The notes under the pieces are model-generated. The model did not search any database. It saw only the letters and a program-made list of their open reading frames with translations, and had not been told where the DNA came from. From Thiohalomonadales bacterium (GTDB lineage Bacteria > Pseudomonadota > Gammaproteobacteria > RBG-16-57-12): a stretch of 64,000 bases of DNA. Shown in pieces: positions 7,997-64,000 of this stretch. A program made the translations under genes and the position numbers. The DNA lies in assembly GCA_050295955.1 (NCBI GenBank), contig JBNKQQ010000083.1, positions 10,219 through 74,218 on the forward strand, written 5' to 3'. How positions within the stretch are numbered: the first letter of the stretch is position 1; every line of letters begins with the position of its first letter.

Positions 7997-8974
7997 TCAA
8001 CCTTTTGAAATTAAACCCTCTTTCCCGAAGATCACTTCCACTCTCAAGAGAAAGCCCCAGTTGTCTTTAAAATTATTCTCACGATCAAAGGAGACGCGAG
8101 GAGAGAGTTCGTAAAATAACCATTCACGATGAATACGTTTACGATAGCGGATATCCAGAATATAGCTATCCACTTCATTACCGTGGTAGTCGCTGCCGTT
8201 AATACCCAAGGTATAGGCGAGACCCCGCCGTAGATCTAATTTTCGATATAGTGAGATATTTTGACTCCATAGGTAAGCTTGAAGTTCATCCCACCAAGTA
8301 CCGGTTGTGGAAAAGCGTAGCAGCCGTTGCTTTGCTAAGGGATGTTCGATATCCAGTATGCTGCGAGCGCCTGCTCCCGTGGATTTGAATTCAAATAGTG
8401 TCTGGGTAAAGCGTACCTGAAGGGAAGAGAACTGCCACTCTTTACGTCCCCTGACTCGTATAAATGGGTCTATCGGTGTATGCAGTTTAACACCCACATC
8501 GGTACTAAGCCGCCATGCCTCTGTCTCTTTAAGAATGGCTTCCAGCACGGCAGATTGCTGATTATCACCAGTGGGGTTTTCAATGGCAGAGTTTTCTTGT
8601 TCCTGCTGAGTGCTTTGAGTCTCTTCAGGGGTACTTTCAACGGTAAAGCGCAAACGTTCCTTGCTGTGGGGCATGATTAGCTTGGCACGAAAAGTCTGTT
8701 TAAAATCGACGACACCTCCCTCCTGAAAAAGAGTATCCAGTGAGAGGCGGAAGGTGCTCTTATTGGACTCTAATTCGCTACGCTCATCAGCAAAAAAGTT
8801 GTCGATAGTTCGTGGGAGGTAAAGTAGACCTTCACTAATGTAATCGTGGGTGGTGTTGAGTGTGCTGGAAAAGTAAAGGCTGTCCTCTTCTTCGGTGACA
8901 ACCGCCTCCGTTGCGACGGCATTAAGCGGTAGCAGTAGGAGGAGTACAGCCTTTAAGAAAATAGGTACCTTCAT
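7997..8974 (-). CDS. Secreted or outer-membrane-associated hypothetical protein
   Basis: N-terminal signal peptide. 325 aa. Amphipathic beta-like C-terminal segments ending in F. No known motif. Confidence 0.5.
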   Translation of the reverse strand: MKVPIFLKAVLLLLLPLNAVATEAVVTEEEDSLYFSSTLNTTHDYISEGLLYLPRTIDNFFADERSELESNKSTFRLSLDTLFQEGGVVDFKQTFRAKLIMPHSKERLRFTVESTPEETQSTQQEQENSAIENPTGDNQQSAVLEAILKETEAWRLSTDVGVKLHTPIDPFIRVRGRKEWQFSSLQVRFTQTLFEFKSTGAGARSILDIEHPLAKQRLLRFSTTGTWWDELQAYLWSQNISLYRKLDLRRGLAYTLGINGSDYHGNEVDSYILDIRYRKRIHREWLFYELSPRVSFDRENNFKDNWGFLLRVEVIFGKEGLISKG

Positions 8975-9006
8975 TTCGCCTTTATCGGCCGAAATGAAGG
9001 CGAGGA

Positions 9007-9813
9007 TTAGTGGTGATGGTGCTGAGAAGCATCTGGTGGCTGAGGTGCCTGCACTTCGGGAGCATGATGGTGTGACTCCATCTCCTGTTGCTGTGGCGAA
9101 GGGGTGGCCATCTCCATTACATGAGAGGCGTGCGCATTGCCATTGTCGTGACTGTGATCGCCATGGAGAAGGTGGCGGGTGGCGGTGAAAATCGCTAGGA
9201 TAATCAGGGCAATGGCCGCAACCTTAAGCAGAATACCACGAAGCTGCGGTGTCAGTTTCCGCATCAGATAGGGCGTGGCAAGCATTGATGGGATAGTTCC
9301 CAGACCAAAGGCAAACATGATCAGAGCCCCTTGCTCCAGGCTATTTGCTGTCAGGCTTAGCGCCAGAGCGGCATACACCAGTCCACAAGGAAGCAAGCCG
9401 TTCAGCCAACCCACCATCAACCAGGGGACCAAGCTCTCCTGCTGATGGGCTTGCTTGCTCCAACGTCCTAAGCCGCTGATACGCATGATGGTTGCAGTAA
9501 AGCGGCTCAGTGGATCGGGTAGCCAGCCTCCTAGATTCAGGGCAAACAGCACCATGACCGCTGCGGCGAAATAGCTCAACCAGACCTGTATATTCTGCAT
9601 CTCCCCACCGTGCAGGCTAAGTCCGATTGCGGCAATCAGTACGCCCAATAATACATAGCTGCTGACGCGAGCACCTTGATAGGCAATCAGCCCTGGCCAC
9701 CAGAGTTTTTCACGACTCATGGTGATGGCACTGACTAGGCCGCCACACATGCCAATGCAGTGCAGGCTGCCGAGAAGTCCGATGGTAAAGGCGCTGGCGA
9801 GCAGGCTATCCAC
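9007..9813 (-). CDS. DsbD_2/UreH-like polytopic membrane protein with His-rich C-terminal tail (possible Ni/Co or metal handling)
   Basis: LGSLHCIGMCGG motif characteristic of the UreH-like/DsbD_2 transmembrane family. C-terminus HGDHSHDNGNAHASH...HHHH. Confidence 0.55.
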   Translation of the reverse strand: MDSLLASAFTIGLLGSLHCIGMCGGLVSAITMSREKLWWPGLIAYQGARVSSYVLLGVLIAAIGLSLHGGEMQNIQVWLSYFAAAVMVLFALNLGGWLPDPLSRFTATIMRISGLGRWSKQAHQQESLVPWLMVGWLNGLLPCGLVYAALALSLTANSLEQGALIMFAFGLGTIPSMLATPYLMRKLTPQLRGILLKVAAIALIILAIFTATRHLLHGDHSHDNGNAHASHVMEMATPSPQQQEMESHHHAPEVQAPQPPDASQHHHH

Positions 9814-12364: not shown

Positions 12365-12667
12365 ATGGAAAACCTATCTGAATATCAATGTCGTCATTTC
12401 ACCAGTTATAGCGGTATCGCTTTACCCCTAAAACTGGTTAATGAATTGGATGAGGCTAGCCGTGATAACCGTAATACCTATTTCCGGGGTTATTACGATG
12501 ATGGTGGGCGGCTACACCTGTGTGAGAAGGTCGTGTATGGGGAGATTGAGCTGACCCATCGCTATGAATATGATGAGAATGGCGTGTTACGCAGCGCCGA
12601 AATTACCGATGTAGATGAAGAGCCAAAACGGATTCAATTTGATTGCAACGGTCGACCACAGCGTTAA
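12365..12667 (+). CDS. Hypothetical protein (100 aa)
   Basis: ORF only. Acidic, no motif. Confidence 0.35.
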   Translation: MENLSEYQCRHFTSYSGIALPLKLVNELDEASRDNRNTYFRGYYDDGGRLHLCEKVVYGEIELTHRYEYDENGVLRSAEITDVDEEPKRIQFDCNGRPQR

Positions 12668-12690
12668 AACCGTCAGTAAAAGGAGCTGCG

Positions 12691-56608: not shown

Positions 56609-56869
56609 ATGTCACTACTCGATTATCTATTGCGAAAAAAGAAAAAGCCCAGCGCCTCGGTCGCCAAAGAGCGTCTACAGATCATCCTGGCCCGAGAGCA
56701 CGGTAATGACGAACCAGACTTCCTGCCAGAACTTAAACGGGAACTGCTGGAAGTGATCAGCAAATACACCAACATTGATTTGGATGAGATCAGCGTCAAT
56801 CTGGATAAAGAGGACGACTGCGAAATCCTTGAAGTCAACGTAGTGTTGAATAAGAAGGATGCGGCGTAA
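56609..56869 (+). CDS. minE: Cell division topological specificity factor MinE
   Basis: MSLLDYLLRKKKK N-terminus. 86 aa. Confidence 0.95.
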   Translation: MSLLDYLLRKKKKPSASVAKERLQIILAREHGNDEPDFLPELKRELLEVISKYTNIDLDEISVNLDKEDDCEILEVNVVLNKKDAA

Positions 56870-56893
56870 ATTCACGCAGTGCATCACTTCATG

Positions 56894-56922
56894 AAAAGGC
56901 GGCCAATGGTCGCCTTTTTTAT
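56894..56922 (+). terminator. Probable rho-independent terminator after minE
   Basis: aaggcggcc-aat-ggtcgcctt (one mismatch) plus T-run. Confidence 0.5.
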
Positions 56923-56960
56923 TTGGTAGGTGCGCGCCCTGCAAAAGTAAATTCATCCAA

Positions 56961-57200
56961 TTCTAAAAGTGTGTGTAGGAGCCTGCTTGCAGGCGATGGG
57001 CTTTTATATCGCTATTGCTGTAGGAGCTTGCCCTGCAAGCGAACCCACTCAATTCTAATAAGCGTGTGTAGGAGCCTGCTTGCAGGCGATGGGTTTTTAT
57101 ATCGCTACTGCTGTAGGGGCTTGCCCTGCAAGCGAACCCACTCAATTCTAATAAGCGTGTGTAGGAGCCTGCTTGCAGGCGATGGGTTTTCATATCGCTA
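56961..57200 (+). repeat. Tandem BIME-like array: ~91-bp units each containing REP (gtaggagcctgcttgcaggcgat) and variant REP' (gtagg[a/g]gcttgccctgcaagcga)
   Basis: Units begin at ~56961, 57051 and 57143. REP is identical to the pair at 1362-1421. A further REP variant lies at 57528-57550. Confidence 0.8.
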
Positions 57201-57204
57201 CCGC

Positions 57205-57571
57205 GATGAAGTGGATATCACTTCGTGAGGTTTTATTGGCATCGGGATTCCGTCCCGATAGCCGGGTCACTTTTTTACCGTAAAAAAGTAACCAAAAAAG
57301 CTCTCCCGAAAAATGCGGTCGCCAACAACGCGACTTCCCTCGGTTCTCACTATGAACAGCACTCCTGGCAACTCGCTTCGCTCAAACATGCCATCCGCTT
57401 AATCTGTTCATCGCTGCGAGCCTCGGCACATTTGAACGGGGATGAAAGGCATGGCATATTCCGCTAACGCGGAAGAAAAAGTCATTCTGCACTTGATTCA
57501 GAATCCAGGCTAATTCTAAAAAGCGTATGTGGGAGCCTACTTGCTGGCGATGGGTTTTATATCGCTACCGC
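57205..57571 (+). repeat. Structured repeat element, copy L1 (hairpin-rich, ~200-bp conserved core)
   Basis: Hairpins gaagtg-gatat-cacttc, atcggga-ttccg-tcccgat, cttttttac-c-gtaaaaaag. Core ggtcgccaacaacgcgacttccctcggttctcac...caaacatgccatccgc...gcgagcctcggc...catttgaacgg. Confidence 0.75.
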
Positions 57572-57900
57572 GATGAAGTGGATATCACTTCGTGAGGTTT
57601 TGTTGGCATCGGGATTCCGTCCCGATAGCCGGGTCACTTTTTTACCGTAAAAAAGTAACCCAAAAAACTCCCCCGAAATATGGTCGCCAACACCGAGACT
57701 TCCCTCGGCTCTCGCTACGAATGGCGCTACTGGCAACTCGCAAACTACGCTCAAACATGCCATCCGCTCTTTCCGTTCGTAGCTACGAGCCTCGGCAGTA
57801 TTTGAACGGGAATGAACGGCGTTTATATATTTCGCTAACGCGAAAGATGAAGAGCCGCTTCGCGGAGTAATTGAATGGGTGCTTGCGACCCGTTGTAGCC
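57572..57900 (+). repeat. Structured repeat element, copy L2
   Basis: Same architecture as L1 with indels and paired substitutions. Putative ORF frames differ between copies, so noncoding. Confidence 0.75.
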
Positions 57901-58090
57901 ATTGGCAGGCAGCTAATTGAACGTCAGCCATTGGTAAAAATTAACAATCAATATATACATTCAAATAGATTGGGTTGACTAGGTATCCCATGCAAGCAAA
58001 GTTGCAAATTGGCTTAATGATCAATAGTGCTCTTGGAAGGAACCTCCTTCCGATAACACTACTTGCACCGGATTGCTGTTGGTGAATGAA

Positions 58091-59173
58091 TTACGAATGG
58101 GGGGGCTCAAGTCTAGGTGAACAAACCCCTGATGTAGGCATCGTAATTCCCCATGGATAAGCCGGAGTTTCTCCTCGTTGATACTGGTAAACTGTTACCT
58201 TAGGTAAATTTCGTTTGTCATAAAGTGTTCCAAAGCGGAATACCAAACTGCTCGGCCCAGCGATAAAAAGGTGGATGTGGTTAATTCCGTAACTGTCCAA
58301 TTTAGTGAGCATTTCAAGAAATTGCCTGCCTAATGCTCGCTGCTTGTCTTCTGACCAGTGAGAGTCTGGCCCAGCATTCTGCAATTCGAGATGAATTAAT
58401 GGAATATTAGGTAGTTTCTTCTGAATCTCAGGTAAATTGGCTATGTATGATATAGAAATGGCTAAGACTGCCTCTGTTGATTCTTGGTCAAGTTGTGTCC
58501 CAAGATATTTAGTATCAAAGCGATTTCCATCGTCAGCTTTTTCAAGCTGCTGCCATCTTTTTTTATGTCGCTCCCAATCAAAGATATGAATTTCCGATTC
58601 ATCATCTAGAATTGTCCCTGCTAGAAAAGTTAGAGGAACAGGGGCCAGTCCTCCAAATACAGTTGTAATATCATTTCTATTGTTTCCAGCTTCATATTGG
58701 TCAAGCTGATAAGTGATATGTACTAATTTATCTAGAGCAACTTGAGGTTCAACGATATAGCCATCTCTAATATTTTGCCTGAGATCTACTAGTATGCTAT
58801 TACGTCTTCCCTCAAAGTAGGGGGGGAGCGATTCATTTAAAGGAGTACCGGCTGAATCGCGAAGCCCTCTTACTTCAATAACATTTACTCTTTTGCGCGA
58901 TAACGCTCGATATTCCATGGTATGTCTAATTATTTCCCATGGTATGGCTATTGATATTAATGCAATACCGAGGAAGTAAGTTGTATAGATCAAGAGTGAA
59001 GGAATATTTCCCTCAATATCGATATCTAATTTGAAAGAGTCTCCACTTTCAACAGAAAAGGTAATATCTGCAGCAGCAGCTAGAGTGAGTAGAAATACCC
59101 CTGCTCTTAGAAAATACAATGCAGGTGACTTTTTACGAATAATCCAGTATATGATTTGTTTAATTATTGTCAC
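58091..59173 (-). CDS. CBASS-like effector: N-terminal 2-TM domain fused to a SAVED-like (CARF-related) sensor domain
   Basis: Two N-terminal TM helices. C-terminal ~270 aa ending HIHLFIAGPSSLVFRFGTLYD, resembling the SAVED C-terminal motif. Immediately downstream of the nucleotidyltransferase. Confidence 0.5.
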   Translation of the reverse strand: MTIIKQIIYWIIRKKSPALYFLRAGVFLLTLAAAADITFSVESGDSFKLDIDIEGNIPSLLIYTTYFLGIALISIAIPWEIIRHTMEYRALSRKRVNVIEVRGLRDSAGTPLNESLPPYFEGRRNSILVDLRQNIRDGYIVEPQVALDKLVHITYQLDQYEAGNNRNDITTVFGGLAPVPLTFLAGTILDDESEIHIFDWERHKKRWQQLEKADDGNRFDTKYLGTQLDQESTEAVLAISISYIANLPEIQKKLPNIPLIHLELQNAGPDSHWSEDKQRALGRQFLEMLTKLDSYGINHIHLFIAGPSSLVFRFGTLYDKRNLPKVTVYQYQRGETPAYPWGITMPTSGVCSPRLEPPHS

Positions 59174-59195
59174 GTCTTTAGTTACCTCCCCGCTT

Positions 59196-60710
59196 CTATT
59201 GGATATTCACTATAAATTGCCCACTACGCGCTGCTAGCAGTCCATCTTTTACTATAAAGCATTCTATGCTGTGCATACCTTTATAGGAGGTGGACTCCTG
59301 TCTTGTTAATGAGTTGCAGTCTCTAGAAAAGTCACCCCGTAATCCACAAGCCAATTTAGCTTCGTTACCAGTATTTACCACCTGCCAGTGTACTTTATAT
59401 GGAGGTGGAATATTTGTTGTAGCCTCAAACTTTAAATCGCAGTTTTTCGGCAAGGCTTCACCGTTGCTATCAAATCGGTATGGCCCATATTTATTCTTTC
59501 TATATGTAGCCTTTGCAATTTGAACATTCCCTTGTACTGAAGTCTTCCAAGGGGGAGTTTGTTTATGGGGAGGATTTAGAGCTAACTGTTTGCTTGAATG
59601 ATGGTGTATGTCACTGTAATTTACGTTGTTCTTTGAAAGTGATGCATCGATTAGTTTTTTTCCTAATCTAGGTGTGAGGGTATTAGCTGCAGATTCCTCA
59701 TTTAGTGCATTAGCTGCACTGTAGAAATCTTCTCTCGCTTGGGCGAGCCACTCATAGAATGCACCTTTCCTTTCAGGATATTGTTGCCAGCGGTCAGAAA
59801 AATTTTCAGCCGGGTCCGTCGGGTTGGGTATCCATGACACTCCATTACGTGTCTCTATAAAGCTATCCATGCGTTGAAGAATACTATACAGTGCCCCTGA
59901 TATAGTCGGTTCTTGCTGGTATGCATGACCTGCCAATGTGGTTAAAATAATGGATATGGGCTTTTCATCCAATCGTTTAGCAAACATAGTATTCCTATGA
60001 TGCTTGAGAAGTTGAATAGCTGACTGTAGTGGTGTACGAACCTTATAGTCTGGTATATCTTCAACGCTAGCATTAATTGCATAAGCAAGTTCCTTTTTTC
60101 TCTGCTCAAAAATCACAGTCATTCGGGATTTGAACCAGTCGCTATATCCCTTAGGGTTGCTATGTGGCCAATAAGAAGTGATGCATTTGTAATATGGGTG
60201 ATCCCTATCAGTAATGGCGATTGCAGATTCAGACCATTTCGAAGAAAATCCTCTGCTAGCAAGAAGATATCTCATATCCTCCCCGTCAGGGATTGCAGGC
60301 AGTGTATCCAAATGAAATTGTGCACCATCAGCATAGTTTTGGGTCCAACAGCGTCTGCCTTCATCAGGTATTTTCATTTCATGTGCTTTCGCATACTCCT
60401 TTAACTCAAAACCCAAGGCTTCCTTCAATTGATGTTGTGTTAATGAGCTTTTTGACAAAGTCAGTTCACAAACTAGATCAATGTCATAATCGTCATCACC
60501 TGAGTGGGGTTTAATGACTGTTCCTAAACGAAATGATCCTTGAACGTATACCTGTGGATTTGCATCTTTAAGCTTGGAGCTATCTCTGTTTAGCCATTTA
60601 CCAACTGATGTATAGCTGCGCTCTGCTGCTTCATATCTGCTGGGAGATATTTGTAGTGCTTCTACTGCATTTTCAAGTAGCTTTTCAGTGTGTTTCTTAA
60701 TGTTTGTCAT
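59196..60710 (-). CDS. SMODS/CD-NTase-type (cGAS/DncV-like) nucleotidyltransferase with ~300-aa C-terminal extension (possible AGS-C sensor)
   Basis: QGSFRLGTVIKPHSGDDDYDIDLV = GS...[DE]x[DE] Pol-beta NTase motif, in SMODS-like N-terminal context (..Y..V..WL). 504 aa. Confidence 0.6.
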   Translation of the reverse strand: MTNIKKHTEKLLENAVEALQISPSRYEAAERSYTSVGKWLNRDSSKLKDANPQVYVQGSFRLGTVIKPHSGDDDYDIDLVCELTLSKSSLTQHQLKEALGFELKEYAKAHEMKIPDEGRRCWTQNYADGAQFHLDTLPAIPDGEDMRYLLASRGFSSKWSESAIAITDRDHPYYKCITSYWPHSNPKGYSDWFKSRMTVIFEQRKKELAYAINASVEDIPDYKVRTPLQSAIQLLKHHRNTMFAKRLDEKPISIILTTLAGHAYQQEPTISGALYSILQRMDSFIETRNGVSWIPNPTDPAENFSDRWQQYPERKGAFYEWLAQAREDFYSAANALNEESAANTLTPRLGKKLIDASLSKNNVNYSDIHHHSSKQLALNPPHKQTPPWKTSVQGNVQIAKATYRKNKYGPYRFDSNGEALPKNCDLKFEATTNIPPPYKVHWQVVNTGNEAKLACGLRGDFSRDCNSLTRQESTSYKGMHSIECFIVKDGLLAARSGQFIVNIQ

Positions 60711-60729
60711 ATATTCTTAACCTCTCCAA

Positions 60730-60963
60730 TCAATCTTTAGGTGGATATGGGTCATTGCCATGACTATCGCTACTGGCAATACGTCCATTTTTATTGTGAA
60801 TGCGCAATTCAGTGCCTTGATTGCGACTGGTTTCACGCCCTTTGCTGATAGCATCAGCTTTTGTTTTATGGTGGCTGCTTGCCCGTTGAGCTTCACCACG
60901 TTTAACATCCCAGCCACCTTGAGGGTTGGATACGATGTGATGCGTTTTAGGACCTTTTGGCAT
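60730..60963 (-). CDS. DUF2188 small protein, immediately upstream of and co-oriented with the nucleotidyltransferase
   Basis: KGPKTHHIV.NP.GGWDVKR...RASSHH.TKADAI..GRE.SRNQGTEL.IH.K.GRI...DSHGNDP.PPKD matches DUF2188 consensus. Confidence 0.65.
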   Translation of the reverse strand: MPKGPKTHHIVSNPQGGWDVKRGEAQRASSHHKTKADAISKGRETSRNQGTELRIHNKNGRIASSDSHGNDPYPPKD

Positions 60964-61269
60964 AATAATGCTCCTTTGCTTTATATATTTAACTAATTTT
61001 TAATCGATTATTAAGGGTTTCCTCAATTGCATACCTAATAGCAATTAGAGATAAATATCCCCTAGTGCTTATATATACTGCTGAGAATAAAAAAGTGGCG
61101 ATTTTTTGTAAAAACTTATAAGTCACTGTTAATGAAGGATAAAATTTTGTGCCGAATTCATTTTGTTAATTTGGCCTGTTGTAGATATAATTATTCTTAT
61201 ATAAATTTTATGGTGAATTTTTTCTCCACTTTTGCATTTTGAACAGTATTAGGGATATAGGAGGAAGTT

Positions 61270-61842
61270 TTGAGCGACCAAGCACATTACACTGAAATTG
61301 AGGTTGAGGAACTTATTCAAGGGCTTACTGATTCTCAAATAGCCAAGATGCTGCATGTTTATCGAAATAAGGGATGTCAGCAAAGGGCGGGACTATCAGG
61401 GCATGATGTTTTTCAAAATGCTGTAATGAAAGCTTTATCAAAAAAGAATTGCTGGAAAAAGGGAATCCCTGCTGAAGCTTATCTAATTATGCTAGGAAAA
61501 AATTATATAAGTAATGAGGAGAAAAAATATTCACGGAATGTTTATGAATCACAATCTGATAATTTACAGATTGAGGCACTTCCTATAACAGCTGTAGACT
61601 GCTCTGAACACACTCATGAGTTCATAATTCAGGAATGGGTTGGTAAAATTGTTAGCCTCTTTGCTGATGATAAAGATGCTTCTTGTTTTTTGAAAAGCAA
61701 GTTGGCACAGGCCAAAAAAGCTAAAATACTCGCTTTATGTAGATTTACAGATCAGGCATATCGAAATGTTGAAAAAAGGATTAAAGATAAGGCAAGGAAG
61801 AGATTTCCTGGTGGTGTGCCGTTTAATGAGGCAACGCTATGA
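61270..61842 (+). CDS. Hypothetical protein (190 aa), first gene of a divergent tri-cistronic operon
   Basis: TTG start with GGAGGA RBS. No recognisable domain. Its stop overlaps the next start. Confidence 0.4.
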   Translation: MSDQAHYTEIEVEELIQGLTDSQIAKMLHVYRNKGCQQRAGLSGHDVFQNAVMKALSKKNCWKKGIPAEAYLIMLGKNYISNEEKKYSRNVYESQSDNLQIEALPITAVDCSEHTHEFIIQEWVGKIVSLFADDKDASCFLKSKLAQAKKAKILALCRFTDQAYRNVEKRIKDKARKRFPGGVPFNEATL

Positions 61843-62276
61843 GTGCTGAATTTCTTAAAATGATCAATGAGTACATTATCGATTCAATTATTGAATGTGA
61901 TGATGATGAGTATTTGTCAAATATAGGAAAGGATGGTTATTCATCTCAAGAGGACATTGACTTTGCTAGATCATTTATCCAAGCCACTGTTAGGGAGCTA
62001 AGGCAAGAGCGCTTAAATGCTAGTAGAGAGCGTTATGCTCAATCAAAAAGCCAAAAAAGTGGTGTATTAGATACCATTTCTACAACAAAGCCTCTCCAAG
62101 AGATGCTTACTCAGATTATTTCAGTGATGCAAAGTGAAGAGCAGGTGCCTGATGGGTTACTTATCGCTTTTAGGGAACAAGGGAAAACTGGTAGTGAAGA
62201 GGGTATTCGCAATATATGGAAATCTCTCGTTGAGCTTGGATTAATTGATCCTGAGAAGGATGAAAATTCGAAATGA
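61839..62276 (+). CDS. Hypothetical acidic protein (145 aa), second gene of the operon
   Basis: ATGA overlaps on both sides. No recognisable domain. Confidence 0.4.
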   Translation: MSAEFLKMINEYIIDSIIECDDDEYLSNIGKDGYSSQEDIDFARSFIQATVRELRQERLNASRERYAQSKSQKSGVLDTISTTKPLQEMLTQIISVMQSEEQVPDGLLIAFREQGKTGSEEGIRNIWKSLVELGLIDPEKDENSK

Positions 62277-63040
62277 GGTTCAAGCAACAACCCAATGATA
62301 TTTTGAAAAGGCTTGGCATGTATGAGCCTGAAGATATTGATTTGGATTTAATTGCATTTGATTTGGGTGCTGAGGTGAAAAGAGCATCGTTGAATGATTG
62401 TGAAGGGAATATCCTAGGAACGTCAACGAAGGCAATTATTACAATTAATAAGATTTCTAGAATTGAAAGGCAGCGTTTTTCATTAGGACATGAGTTGGGA
62501 CACTGGGTAAATGATCGGGGAAAAAATTTAACTTATCGTTGTACTACGGACGATATGCGGCAACGCTCTATGATTCAAGAAGATTTTCGCCAAAATAAAG
62601 AAGTGCGTGCAAATCAATTTTCAGCAGAGCTCCTTATGCCTGACTTCATATTCAAAAGGTATGCTGAAAATTTGGATATTATCCTAAAGACAGCAAGATA
62701 CCTTGCAAATACTTTTAATGTGTCACTCACAAGTACCGTTATAAGGCTTGTTGAGTTATCTGAGAGGCCATGCATGATTATTTGCTGGGACAAGATGGGT
62801 AAACGGCGCTGGTTCTCACGTAACGATATTATTCCTGAAAAAATATGGCCACATGAAAGAATTTTTCATCCTCAAGAAGTATTCAAGCTTTCAGATGGAG
62901 TAGAGGTGGATGCTGATAAATGGATCAACTTGGCAGGATCAGAGAATTACACCGTAATCGAAAGTATATTTTCAAATACATATGACTTTTTATCACTCAT
63001 TTGGTGGAAGGATGAAGAGCAGCTAGCTCACTATCTATGA
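62273..63040 (+). CDS. ImmA/IrrE-family zinc metallopeptidase (CapP-like) with C-terminal Cys/His-containing domain
   Basis: HELGHW (HExxH) at the N-terminal peptidase core. Downstream E in QFSAELLMP. C-terminal CMIIC ... HERIFH. Confidence 0.6.
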   Translation: MRFKQQPNDILKRLGMYEPEDIDLDLIAFDLGAEVKRASLNDCEGNILGTSTKAIITINKISRIERQRFSLGHELGHWVNDRGKNLTYRCTTDDMRQRSMIQEDFRQNKEVRANQFSAELLMPDFIFKRYAENLDIILKTARYLANTFNVSLTSTVIRLVELSERPCMIICWDKMGKRRWFSRNDIIPEKIWPHERIFHPQEVFKLSDGVEVDADKWINLAGSENYTVIESIFSNTYDFLSLIWWKDEEQLAHYL

Positions 63041-63084
63041 GCTGCTACCTCAGATGATTCTCTACCTATAGCTATGACTACTTA

Positions 63085-63420
63085 GTACCGCATGCGGCCA
63101 TCCAATTTTTCCTACAAAGCGGTTCTTTTTCTTTTGCGTTAGCAAAACATAAAATGCTTTTCACATCCCGTTCAAATGCAGCCGAGGCTCGCAGCTGTGG
63201 ACGGATAGAGCGGATGGCATGTTTGAGCGTAGTTTGCGAGTTGCCAGGAGCACCGTTCGCAGTGAGAACCGAGGGAAGTCGCGTTGTTGGCGACCGGTAT
63301 TTTCGGGCCTTCTCTTTGATTACTTTCTCTTGGCCGTTCAAGAGAAAGTCATTAGCTGTCGGGCTACCCCCGACATCTCATTAATCGTCACGCAGTGACA
63401 CATAATCTTACCGCAGAGCC
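63085..63420 (-). repeat. Structured repeat element, copy R1 (inverted relative to L1/L2)
   Basis: The reverse complement matches the L-copy core (ggtcgccaacaacgcgacttccctcggttctcac...). Hairpins actttctcttg-aacggc-caagagaaagt and tgtcggg-ggtag-cccgaca replace the L-copy hairpins at the same positions. Confidence 0.75.
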
Positions 63421-63489
63421 AGTAGGGCAGGCTCACTACAGTGATAGTGATATAAAAATCGCGACTCGATTACTGTATTGCATTTCTGT

Positions 63490-63835
63490 GAGTTGAAGCC
63501 TGGATTCTGAATCAAGTTCAGAATGACTTTTTCTTTCGCGTTAGCGAAACATTAAATGCAGTTAATTCCCGTTCAAATACAGCCGAGGCTCGCAGCTGTG
63601 GACGGATAGAGCGGATGGCATGTTTGAGCGTAGTTTGCGAGTTTCCAGGAGCACCGTTCGCAGTGAGAACCGAGGGAAGTCGCGTTGTTTGCGACCTGTA
63701 TTTTCGGGCGGCCTTCTCTTTGATGACTTTCTCTTGGCCGTTCAAGAGAAAGTCATTAGCTGTCGGGTTACCCCCGACATCTCATTAATCGTCACGCAGT
63801 GACACATAATCTTACCGCAGAGCCAGTAGGATGCG
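63490..63835 (-). repeat. Structured repeat element, copy R2
   Basis: Near identical to R1. Confidence 0.75.
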
Positions 63836-63939
63836 GTGATAACCGCATCGATCGAGACAGAATCATTACACGACTGATGCGGTTCGTTCCTCACCACATC
63901 CTACATTGAATGACCGCTCCAGCCGCTTTTGGCCATCTA

Positions 63940-64000
63940 ATTTATCTCGCGTAGCGGTTCTTCTTTTTTCGCGTTAGCGGAATATAAAATGCCTTTCCTA
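63940..64000 (-). repeat. Structured repeat element, copy R3 (partial, truncated by window end)
   Basis: cttcttttttcgcgttagcggaatataaaatgc parallels the R1/R2 starts. Confidence 0.5.

What the first reader, a model, noticed from the sequence alone, without database searches (positions are those of the whole stretch)
61270..63040. Divergent three-gene operon ending in an ImmA/IrrE (CapP-like) metallopeptidase but lacking an obvious HTH partner
Three ORFs with ATGA stop-start overlaps are transcribed divergently from the CBASS-like genes across a 300-bp AT-rich region. The last has HELGHW (HExxH) and a downstream Glu, as in ImmA/IrrE/CapP peptidases, plus a C-terminal segment with CMIIC...HERIFH (possible Zn or DNA-binding module). 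In known systems the peptidase partner is an XRE-type HTH repressor (CapH/ImmR). Neither upstream protein (190 aa, 145 aa) shows a clear HTH. They may be divergent repressor or sensor components, or this is a distinct ImmA-based defence or regulatory triad.
Basis: partly seen in the sequence, partly recalled or inferred. Interest (0 to 1): 0.7.

Follow-up and report, generated by a model that had tools for sequence, protein, structure and literature searches.

The report
Sigma factor, partner and CapP switch
The three genes form a portable on-switch for bacterial anti-phage operons: a divergent ECF-type sigma factor, a small acidic protein that is probably its anti-sigma factor, and the DNA-damage-sensing protease CapP, a layout noted only in passing in the literature I searched.

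Summary
Three translationally coupled ORFs (61270-61842, 61839-62276, 62273-63040; ATGA overlaps) run divergently from a type I CBASS operon across a 306-bp, 27.5% GC spacer.

- **ORF3** is a full-length CapP: HExxH, Glu110 and the cysteine-switch Cys90.
- **ORF1** is a divergent ECF-type sigma factor. This rests on transitive profile homology to Mtb SigH and E. coli sigmaE and on a two-domain AlphaFold model. The "missing HTH" is therefore sigma region 4.
- **ORF2** belongs to a family of about 126 small acidic all-helical proteins with no HTH and no known fold. Ala110 and Arg112 are invariant, with Phe111 between them in 60 of 70 members. CapP cuts CapH at a Phe|Arg bond.
- **Conservation:** the triad keeps its order in every context examined, in Gamma- and Alphaproteobacteria. 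Its cargo varies: type I and II CBASS, Bub/6A ubiquitin-like operons, DUF2188 and DUF3892 operons.
- **Promoters:** the spacer carries two divergent copies of GCCACTTTT-N10-CAGTAT, one facing the cargo and one facing the sigma gene. Distant clades carry their own duplicated bipartite motif.

Best model: ssDNA-activated CapP cleaves ORF2, which frees the sigma factor to transcribe the cargo operon and its own operon. I rate it a new variant of the CapH+CapP system. Lau et al. 2022 recorded "Sigma-70 present" in 24 systems without analysing it.

The parts
61270..61842 (+). ORF1, 190 aa: divergent ECF-type (group IV) sigma factor. The sigma-2-like domain spans about residues 9-93, a disordered linker spans 82-112, and the sigma-4-like domain spans 113-178 with the invariant basic helix YRNVEKRIKDKxRKRFP.
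   Evidence: NCBIfam gives weak ECF sigma hits over residues 45-105. The AlphaFold2 model has two helical domains. The top Foldseek PDB hits are ECF sigmas but with E>0.3. An HMMER profile search finds 453 relatives, and 19 of 59 distant ones hit Pfam Sigma70_r2. hhalign of A1 against A5 gives probability 99.9, E 5e-37. The A5 profile hits Mtb SigH at 6e-07 and E. coli sigmaE at 4e-03. The Azospirillum plasmid homologue is annotated by NCBI as a sigma-70 family sigma factor.
61839..62276 (+). ORF2, 145 aa: small acidic all-helical protein of an unnamed family and the putative anti-sigma factor and CapP substrate. Ala110 and Arg112 are invariant and flank Phe111.
62273..63040 (+). ORF3, 255 aa: CapP, an ImmA/IrrE-family M78 Zn-metallopeptidase. 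It carries H73-E74-xx-H77, Glu110 and the cysteine-switch Cys90, and the C-terminal part falls within the full-length capP model.
   Evidence: PADLOC capP 6.4e-50 full length and Pfam Peptidase_M78 2.8e-16. PDB 7T5T CapP 2.8e-08, with the Cys aligned to the switch Cys113. Invariant residues come from alignment A6.
61223..61249 (+). Putative sigma-dependent promoter of the triad (autoregulation): tCTCCACTTTT-N10-CAGTAT, ending 20 nt before the TTG start.
   Evidence: Exact-pattern search finds 3 hits in 64 kb against 0.21 expected, and 2 of them lie in this spacer. The extended pattern gives 3 hits against 0.14 expected. It forms an inverted repeat with 61075-61101. The same motif lies at the same position upstream of the sigma gene in L001-L005, L010-L012, L018 and L020.
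61075..61101 (-). Putative sigma-dependent promoter of the cargo operon (DUF2188, CD-NTase, 2TM-SAVED): tCGCCACTTTT-N10-CAGTAT, 111 nt upstream of the DUF2188 ATG.
   Evidence: The equivalent minus-strand copy is present in the related loci.
61163..61191 (+). Candidate sigma-70-type promoter TTGTTA-17-TATAAT, lying between the two motif copies and pointing at the triad. It may give basal expression.
   Evidence: The consensus scan scores it 10 of 12. The number of such sites in the region is no higher than in shuffles, so this is only a candidate.
60730..60963 (-). DUF2188 (PADLOC PDC-S16) small protein, the first gene of the cargo operon.
   Evidence: Pfam DUF2188 5.8e-21 and PADLOC PDC-S16 4.9e-34. 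It recurs next to the triad in L006-L012 and X9P1.
59196..60710 (-). CBASS CD-NTase with a C-terminal AGS_C sensor domain.
   Evidence: PADLOC Cyclase 2.4e-208. Pfam AGS_C 5.4e-29, plus SMODS and DncV-like NTase.
58091..59173 (-). CBASS effector: an N-terminal 2TM (Saf_2TM) domain fused to a SAVED sensor.
   Evidence: Pfam SAVED 1.8e-43 and Saf_2TM 4.4e-22. PADLOC 2TM effector 9.7e-124.

Best explanation
The triad is a portable transcriptional activator cassette for abortive-infection and immune operons. ORF1 is a divergent ECF-type sigma factor. ORF2, translationally coupled to it, holds the sigma factor inactive as a cytoplasmic anti-sigma factor of a new sequence family. CapP is an ssDNA/DNA-damage-activated metallopeptidase with a cysteine switch. 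When activated it cleaves ORF2, with Phe111|Arg112 as the candidate site. The freed sigma factor directs RNA polymerase to two divergent cognate promoters in the spacer (GCCACTTTT-N10-CAGTAT). One drives DUF2188, the CD-NTase and the 2TM-SAVED effector. The other drives the triad itself, giving positive feedback. Shown by computation: the gene structure; the CapP identity and catalytic and switch residues; the sigma-factor homology of ORF1; conservation of the triad with swapped cargo; and the duplicated divergent bipartite motifs. Inferred: that ORF2 binds the sigma factor; that CapP cleaves ORF2, and where; that ssDNA is the signal (by analogy with the characterised CapP); and that the motifs are functional promoters.
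For: CapP identity comes, and its published biochemistry (ssDNA activation, cleavage of CapH at F82|R83, cysteine switch) from Lau et al. 2022. ORF1 as a sigma factor rests. The triad keeps its order, and in most loci 4-nt overlaps, in 12 distinct loci or locus groups besides the window, spanning Gamma- and Alphaproteobacteria. The cargo is different each time: type II CBASS, type II-short CBASS, Bub/6A, DUF2188 with small ORFs, DUF3892, or others. The divergent duplicated bipartite motif occurs in the window at a frequency above chance. It sits at a fixed 20-26 nt from the sigma start codon, while the distance between the two copies varies from about 11 to 146 bp. Within a locus the two copies can share the same variant; in L019 both carry GGCA and GAGTA. 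Distant clades have a different duplicated motif of the TGTCCG...GCGC(C/A)TAA type. Position 6 of a would-be sigma-70 -10 hexamer is not conserved, which argues against a housekeeping promoter. ORF2 is acidic and HTH-free, with an invariant A-[F/A]-R motif.
Against: ORF1 itself does not reach any Pfam or NCBIfam sigma threshold, and Foldseek E-values are above 0.3. The sigma assignment therefore depends on transitive profile homology. ORF2 resembles no known anti-sigma domain, and I obtained no direct evidence that it contacts ORF1, because no complex prediction was available. Five of 70 ORF2 relatives give weak RPA_C (winged-helix) hits, so a cryptic wH domain is not excluded. Per-locus shuffle tests of plus/minus 30-mer similarity are only marginal for the AT-rich window spacer (17 of 200). 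The motif pattern was also partly derived from the sequences it was then scored on. Lau et al. list the middle gene of 'Sigma-70 present' systems as capH, and I could not inspect those proteins.
Confidence: 0.55

Rival explanations
1. ORF2 is a divergent CapH-type repressor. In this reading it is a DNA-binding protein with a cryptic C-terminal winged helix that sits on the inverted repeat in the spacer and is cleaved by CapP. The sigma factor would be an extra downstream layer or an unrelated passenger.
For: Lau et al. 2022 list a 'capH' between the extra gene and capP in 'Sigma-70 present' systems. Five of 70 members give weak RPA_C (winged-helix) hits, and ORF2 carries an LxxLVELGLI-type motif. 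The spacer contains a 27-nt inverted repeat.
Against: No HTH family hits in 70 members. There is no PDB similarity to any repressor or CapH chain at E<=10. The family is acidic, with median pI 4.8, and the putative recognition helix carries a net charge of -5. The distance between the repeat arms varies from about 11 to 146 bp, while each arm keeps a fixed distance and orientation to its gene. That fits two promoters better than one operator.
Confidence: 0.13
2. CapP acts directly on the sigma factor, either destroying it or maturing it as with the pro-sigma factors of Bacillus sporulation. ORF2 would then be an adaptor, chaperone or CapP inhibitor and not an anti-sigma factor.
For: All three proteins are strictly co-inherited, which is compatible with any pairwise wiring. 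The ORF1 N-terminus (residues 9-33) is well conserved and confidently folded.
Against: ORF1 has the normal ECF length with no long pro-sequence; the profile alignment to SigH starts near residue 40. The best conserved motif resembling the mapped CapP site (hydrophobic|Arg) is in ORF2, not ORF1.
Confidence: 0.12
3. The triad is not a regulator of the neighbouring operon. It would instead be a self-contained defence or toxin-antitoxin-like element, such as an ImmA-based abortive system, that simply co-localises with other systems in defence islands.
For: The locus lies in a low-GC island flanked by repeats. The neighbours in other genomes are typical defence-island genes: BrxL, RnlAB, restriction-modification genes and Tn3.
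Against: The triad is always directly adjacent to and divergent from a cargo operon. The same bipartite motif faces both operons. None of the three proteins shows a toxin or effector domain. The CapP family is experimentally a regulator.
Confidence: 0.05

Closest known systems
CapH+CapP (CBASS-associated HTH repressor plus metallopeptidase; Lau et al. 2022), and its relatives DdrO/IrrE of Deinococcus and ImmR/ImmA of ICEBs1
   Same: The CapP orthologue is full length, with HExxH, Glu and the cysteine switch. The module sits upstream of and divergent from an immune operon, with the same kinds of cargo: CBASS, Bub/6A, DUF2188 and DUF3892. The likely signal is ssDNA or DNA damage. The candidate hydrophobic|Arg cleavage motif resembles CapH F82|R83.
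   Different: There is no XRE-type HTH repressor. Instead there are two proteins, an ECF-like sigma factor and an acidic helical protein. The predicted logic is activation by release of a sigma factor with positive autoregulation, not de-repression. The spacer carries duplicated promoter-like bipartite motifs and no repressor operator.
ECF sigma / anti-sigma pairs controlled by regulated proteolysis (E. coli sigmaE-RseA with DegS/RseP). For immune control, the M. xanthus DdvS/DdvA pair, which regulates a CBASS-CRISPR-Cas island (Bernal-Bernal et al. 2024, cited).
   Same: A two-domain sigma factor, a co-transcribed downstream partner, a putative autoregulated promoter and proteolysis as the release signal. 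The DdvS precedent shows that an ECF sigma factor can drive CBASS expression.
   Different: The partner is soluble, has no known anti-sigma domain and no transmembrane segment. The protease is a cytoplasmic M78/ImmA-family enzyme encoded in the same operon, and the signal is presumably intracellular ssDNA, not envelope stress. ORF1 is too divergent to reach the Pfam sigma thresholds.
CapW/BrxR and CapK+CapS (other DNA-damage-responsive 'controller of adjacent pathway' modules)
   Same: The same genomic niche, upstream of interchangeable immune operons, and a presumed ssDNA trigger.
   Different: The proteins and chemistry are unrelated: a WYL repressor, and a kinase with a STAS-wHTH repressor. 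Both of those work by de-repression.

Membership tests
CapP (ImmA/IrrE M78 metallopeptidase of Cap regulators) | M78 peptidase domain with HExxH and a downstream Glu as the third Zn ligand | tested here: met
   H73, E74, H77 and E110 are invariant in A6. Pfam Peptidase_M78 2.8e-16. PDB 7T5T CapP 2.8e-08, with the motifs aligned.
CapP (ImmA/IrrE M78 metallopeptidase of Cap regulators) | Full-length architecture including the C-terminal (HTH-like plus GAF-like) region | tested here: met
   The PADLOC capP model is matched over positions 5-241 of 242 by residues 3-245, at 6.4e-50. I did not examine the domain folds by structure.
CapP (ImmA/IrrE M78 metallopeptidase of Cap regulators) | Internal cysteine-switch loop (present in about a third of CBASS CapPs) | tested here: met
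   Cys90 aligns with the switch Cys113 of Thauera CapP and is invariant in triad CapPs.
CapP (ImmA/IrrE M78 metallopeptidase of Cap regulators) | Activation by ssDNA and cleavage of the partner protein | not testable with these tools
   This needs biochemistry. It is inferred from Lau et al. 2022.
CapH+CapP two-gene regulator | Partner gene encodes an XRE-type HTH repressor with a C-terminal oligomerisation domain (CapH) | tested here: not met
   ORF2 and 69 relatives give no HTH family hit. The A4 profile finds no CapH or repressor chain in the PDB at E<=10. The fold searches are negative. The family is acidic.
CapH+CapP two-gene regulator | Located upstream of, and on the opposite strand to, an immune operon | tested here: met
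   Window and all related loci.
ECF (group IV) sigma-70 family sigma factor | Sigma-2 and sigma-4 domains only, joined by a flexible linker, with detectable homology to known ECF sigmas | tested here: met
   The homology is transitive: A1 to A5 gives hhalign probability 99.9, E 5e-37, and A5 to Mtb SigH gives 6e-07 across r2-r4 and to sigmaE 4e-03. 19 of 59 A5 members hit Sigma70_r2. The AlphaFold2 model has two helical domains and a disordered linker at 82-112. The top Foldseek hits are ECF sigmas, though E>0.3.
ECF (group IV) sigma-70 family sigma factor | The protein itself passes the curated Pfam or NCBIfam sigma thresholds | tested here: not met
   The best NCBIfam hit scores 19.4 bits against a cut-off of 130. 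Pfam Sigma70_r2 appears only at E=0.09, in one of 19 family members.
ECF (group IV) sigma-70 family sigma factor | Cognate bipartite promoter upstream of its own operon (autoregulation) and of its target genes | tested here: met
   At sequence level only. GCCACTTTT-N10-CAGTAT lies on both strands of the spacer and is conserved in related loci, with clade-specific variants. Function was not tested.
ECF (group IV) sigma-70 family sigma factor | Binds core RNA polymerase and initiates transcription | not testable with these tools
   Needs in vitro transcription or pull-down.
Known anti-sigma factor classes (class I ASD/ZAS, class II CnrY-like, NepR-like) | Recognisable anti-sigma domain or HxxxCxxC zinc motif | tested here: not met
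Known anti-sigma factor classes (class I ASD/ZAS, class II CnrY-like, NepR-like) | Encoded immediately downstream of, and co-transcribed with, its sigma factor | tested here: met
   There is a 4-nt ATGA overlap with ORF1 in the window. The same order holds in every related locus, with overlapping or near-abutting genes.
Type I CBASS (the cargo) | A CD-NTase plus a cyclic-nucleotide-sensing effector, without Cap2/Cap3 or HORMA/TRIP13 genes | tested here: met
   CD-NTase with AGS_C and a 2TM-SAVED effector. No E1/E2/JAB or HORMA ORFs lie between 58091 and 60963.

The most novel reading that the evidence does not exclude
ORF2 founds a new class of soluble anti-sigma factor that is destroyed by an ssDNA-activated ImmA/CapP protease. 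CapP-family sensors would then have been wired at least twice to transcription: once to an HTH repressor (CapH, DdrO, ImmR) and once to a sigma/anti-sigma pair. The second design is a self-amplifying switch, because the sigma factor drives its own operon. It would commit a cell to expressing abortive-infection systems after DNA damage, and it comes with a dedicated, clade-specific promoter code that could serve as an orthogonal, damage-inducible expression system.
Probability: 0.45. Interest if true: 0.75.

Novelty: new variant of a known kind. Interest (0 to 1): 0.6.

Why it matters
CapH+CapP, CapW/BrxR and CapK+CapS are all described as de-repression modules. A CapP module built on a sigma/anti-sigma pair would be an activation-type controller with positive feedback, and the same cassette sits in front of type I and II CBASS, Bub/6A ubiquitin-like, DUF2188 and DUF3892 operons. 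It would assign roles to two unnamed protein families: about 450 sigma-like representatives and about 126 clusters of ORF2-like proteins. It predicts the promoters and therefore the regulon. It also gives a directly testable candidate CapP cleavage site. Operons counted in the literature as "CapH+CapP-associated" may include this different mechanism.

Tried and rejected
- **Single-sequence family scans of ORF1 and ORF2** (Pfam, PADLOC, NCBIfam, PHROGs) gave only sub-threshold hits.
- **The A1 profile against the PDB** gave only SigH, at E=1.1. I needed the large representative search to bridge to recognised sigma factors.
- **Foldseek of the ORF1 model** ranked ECF sigmas on top but without significance. 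The arbitrary orientation of the two domains probably explains this.
- **tblastn of ORF1 and ORF2 against plasmids and phages, and an IMG/VR scan with A4,** found no relatives.
- **Rfam on 56800-64000** found nothing relevant.
- **The sigma-70 reading of the motifs** (TTGCCA-N18-TATTTA) was considered and rejected. The positions that are invariant here (CCAC, CAGTA) are not the ones sigma-70 needs. The -7 T is not conserved, and the GC-rich clades carry TGTCCG...GCGCCTAA instead.
- **Extra motif matches** at 12656-12678 and 59350-59374 lie inside coding sequence and lack the T-tract, so they are probably chance.
- **Literature searches** for a described sigma/anti-sigma/CapP mechanism found only the one-line note in Lau et al. 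2022.
Full report
**Observation.** The three + strand ORFs are real: 61270-61842 (190 aa, TTG start preceded by GGAGG), 61839-62276 (145 aa) and 62273-63040 (255 aa). Both junctions read ATGA, so the genes are translationally coupled. They run divergently from a - strand operon across a 306-bp spacer of 27.5% GC. That operon is a type I CBASS system preceded by a small gene:
- DUF2188 / PADLOC PDC-S16, 60730-60963;
- a CD-NTase with an AGS_C domain, 59196-60710;
- a Saf_2TM-SAVED effector, 58091-59173.

**ORF3 is CapP.** It matches the PADLOC capP model end to end at 6.4e-50, Pfam Peptidase_M78 at 2.8e-16, and, as its only PDB relative, the Thauera CapP structure 7T5T at 2.8e-08. H73-E74-xx-H77 and Glu110 are invariant among triad CapPs, and so is Cys90, which aligns with the cysteine-switch Cys113 of Thauera CapP. 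Only Cys171 is invariant there, and the segment lies inside the part covered by the capP model.

**ORF1 is a divergent ECF-type sigma factor.** On its own it gives only sub-threshold hits to ECF sigma region 2 (NCBIfam, E 6.5e-04 to 0.1), and its close family is small, with 21 proteins.
- The alignment shows a region-2-like block and an invariant basic C-terminal helix, YRNVEKRIKDKxRKRFP.
- AlphaFold2 (pLDDT 73.7) gives two helical domains joined by a disordered linker at residues 82-112.
- Eight of the ten top-ranked Foldseek PDB hits are ECF sigma entries (RpoE/NepR, Mtb SigL and SigH, E. coli sigmaE/RseA), but none is individually significant; the best E is 0.34.
- The decisive step was an exhaustive HMMER search with the family profile, which found 453 representatives at E<=1e-3.
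- A sample of 59 distant representatives (A5) aligns to the ORF1 family over its full length (hhalign probability 99.9, E 5e-37).
- 19 of those 59 hit Pfam Sigma70_r2.
- The A5 profile hits Mtb SigH at 6e-07 from region 2 through region 4.2, and E. coli sigmaE at 4e-03.
- A homologue on an Azospirillum plasmid is annotated by NCBI as a "sigma-70 family RNA polymerase sigma factor" (hhalign to A1 probability 97.1). Another triad sigma (L014) hits TIGR02937 sigma70-ECF at 2e-08.

**ORF2 is a new family and not CapH.** A profile search finds 126 homologues, all 140-150 aa and none with a Pfam domain.
- The AlphaFold2 model (pLDDT 80) is all-helical, with a long central helix spanning residues 37-83.
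- None of 70 members hits an HTH family. Five give weak RPA_C hits.
- The family is acidic, with median pI 4.8. The N- and C-terminal parts carry net charges of about -6 and -7. That argues against DNA binding and fits a protein that binds the basic sigma-4 domain.
- The only invariant residues are Ala110, Arg112 and Leu133. Phe111 is present in 60 of 70 members and Ala in the other 10.
- Lau et al. mapped CapP cleavage of CapH between Phe82 and Arg83 and found that the R83A mutant is not cleaved. I therefore treat A-F|R112 as a candidate cleavage site. This is an inference.

**The triad is a portable module.** In every context I examined, the order is sigma-like, ORF2-like, CapP, with overlapping or abutting genes, divergent from a different cargo:

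| Locus | Source | Cargo |
|---|---|---|
| L001-L005 | Amphritea, Porticoccaceae, Pseudomaricurvus, Dasania and a Gammaproteobacteria MAG | MBL-like + E2/E1/JAB + 250-aa protein (6A / Bub ubiquitin-like) |
| L018, L019 | Leucothrix mucor; a metagenome contig | Bub |
| L010-L012 | metagenome contigs | DUF2188 + type II CBASS |
| L020 | an NCBI assembly, organism not shown | type II-short CBASS |
| L006-L009, X9P1 | metagenome contigs | DUF2188 + two small ORFs; ORF2 only 17-23% identical |
| L014 | metagenome contig | two small ORFs |
| L016 | Azospirillum plasmid | a 393-aa hypothetical protein |
| L017 | Bradyrhizobium plasmid | DUF3892 |

The Azospirillum middle protein is homologous to the ORF2 family (probability 95, E 3.7e-08) and retains the A-A-R motif. 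I found no relatives of ORF1 or ORF2 in the phage or plasmid collections by tblastn, nor in IMG/VR. The Azospirillum plasmid copies were detectable only by profile comparison.

**Promoter-like motifs.**
- The window spacer holds a 27-nt inverted repeat, 61075-61101 and 61223-61249.
- Read in the direction of the gene each arm faces, both arms are (T/C)GCCACTTTT-N10-CAGTAT or a close variant.
- The core pattern CCAC-N14-CAGTA occurs 3 times in 64 kb against 0.21 expected, and two of those occurrences are here. The extended pattern gives the same two sites plus one weak match, against 0.14 expected.
- The same pair is present in L001-L004, L010-L012 and L018. One copy carries a one-base variant in L005 and L020. 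L019 carries a matched variant on both strands, GGCA(C/T)...GAGTA.
- The sigma-proximal copy always ends 20-26 nt before the sigma start codon. The distance between the two copies ranges from about 11 bp (L001-type) to 121-146 bp (window, L010). That fits two independent directional promoters better than one operator.
- Distant clades carry a different motif, again duplicated and divergent: TGTCCG-N15-GAGTAT in L006, GATGTCCGAG-N13-GGCGCAT in L014, TGTCCGCG-N13-GCGCCTAA in L016, and a weaker version in L017.
- Per-locus shuffle controls are strong for L010, L016, L005 and L014 (0-1 of 200). They are marginal for the AT-rich window (17 of 200) and L001 (12 of 200), and not significant for L006 and L017.
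- A sigma-70 reading is unlikely. The invariant bases are not the ones sigma-70 needs, and the -7 T is not conserved.
- A separate sigma-70-like site, TTGTTA-17-TATAAT at 61163-61191, could provide basal triad expression, but such sites are no more frequent here than in shuffles.

**Mechanism.** Putting this together, the most likely mechanism runs as follows. ORF1 and ORF2 are made in a 1:1 ratio and form an inactive sigma/anti-sigma complex. CapP is activated by ssDNA from phage replication or DNA damage, as shown for E. coli CapP, and cleaves ORF2. Free sigma then drives the cargo promoter and its own operon. The gene structure, protein identities, module conservation and motifs are shown by computation. 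The ORF1-ORF2 contact, the CapP substrate and site, the signal and promoter function are inferred.

The rivals are ORF2 as a cryptic CapH-like repressor, CapP acting on the sigma factor itself, and a self-contained defence element. They are less consistent with ORF2's acidity, with the motif geometry and with the strict adjacency to variable cargo, but none is excluded.

**Comparison with what is known.** The system works like CapH+CapP, DdrO/IrrE and ImmR/ImmA on the sensor side, and like proteolytically controlled ECF sigma/anti-sigma pairs on the output side. [quoted passage not shown]

The triad fails the CapH+CapP membership test on its defining partner, an XRE-type HTH repressor. ORF1 meets ECF membership only through transitive homology. 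Lau et al. [quoted passage not shown] Their Table S1 shows the gene order CD-NTase, one unlisted gene, "capH", capP. This suggests the arrangement was seen but not analysed. I could not check whether those systems are homologous to this triad. Later papers count such operons as CapH+CapP-associated. I found no paper describing a sigma/anti-sigma/CapP mechanism. I therefore rate it a new variant of a known kind.

**Genomic setting.** The CBASS-plus-triad block (58091-63040) has 38.8% GC against 49.3% for the rest of the window. It lies just downstream of ORFs whose translations look like minC, minD and minE; I did not test that identification. It is bracketed by inverted, tandemly duplicated repeats of about 370-400 bp (57185-57931 and 63078-64000). 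That pattern fits a horizontally acquired defence islet.

Noticed in passing
window 57185-57931 and 63078-64000: The low-GC CBASS-plus-triad block (38.8% GC against 49.3% elsewhere) is bracketed by two tandem copies on each side of a repeat of about 370-400 bp, in inverted orientation (82-94% identity). No further copy was found elsewhere in the window and there is no Rfam match. It could be a MITE-like or insertion-hotspot element that delimits the island.
   Followed up: partly
window 56967-57200 (and 57521-57568): Three head-to-tail copies of a 93-bp unit lie just downstream of the minE-like ORF, and a fourth, partial and diverged, copy of its first 48 nt lies further on. Only a weak, sub-threshold Rfam hit (Brucella sRNA CI337, E=0.03) overlaps it.
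   Followed up: no
window 60730-60963 (-), plus L006-L012 and X9P1: A DUF2188 / PDC-S16 gene is the first cargo gene next to the triad in the window and in two other clades, ahead of different downstream genes. It also has PHROG relatives (phrog_3220, 8e-25). Its role is unknown. Lau et al. also noted DUF2188 operons next to CapH/CapP.
   Followed up: partly
L006-L009, about 8193-9188 (+): In the distant triad clade, a 331-aa TIR-domain protein (TIR, TIR_2, Y4lF) is encoded immediately downstream of CapP on the same strand. There the triad operon itself may carry an effector.
   Followed up: no
L019 5195-5389: Both divergent promoter-like copies in this locus carry the same variant (GGCA(C/T) in place of GCCAC, and GAGTA in place of CAGTA). 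This looks like within-locus co-variation of the two sites and suggests locus-specific sigma/promoter matching.
   Followed up: partly
window 61099-61222: In the window and in L010-L012 the two promoter-like motifs are separated by 121-146 bp of AT-rich DNA, which is absent from the Bub-associated loci, where the -35-like elements are back to back. In the window this insert contains a 10-of-12 sigma-70-like site (61163-61191).
   Followed up: partly
window 12656-12678 (+) and 59350-59374 (+): These are additional matches to the promoter pattern, exact for the core pattern and with two mismatches for the extended one. Both lie inside coding sequence and lack the T-tract, so they are probably chance.
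   Followed up: partly
L013 6255-7000: In this GC-rich contig the sigma-like gene upstream of the ORF2 homologue was not called by the source annotation, although the DNA appears to encode it. No CapP gene is called downstream; a 378-aa gene on the opposite strand starts about 180 bp after the ORF2 homologue. This may be a decayed or rearranged copy of the triad.
   Followed up: no
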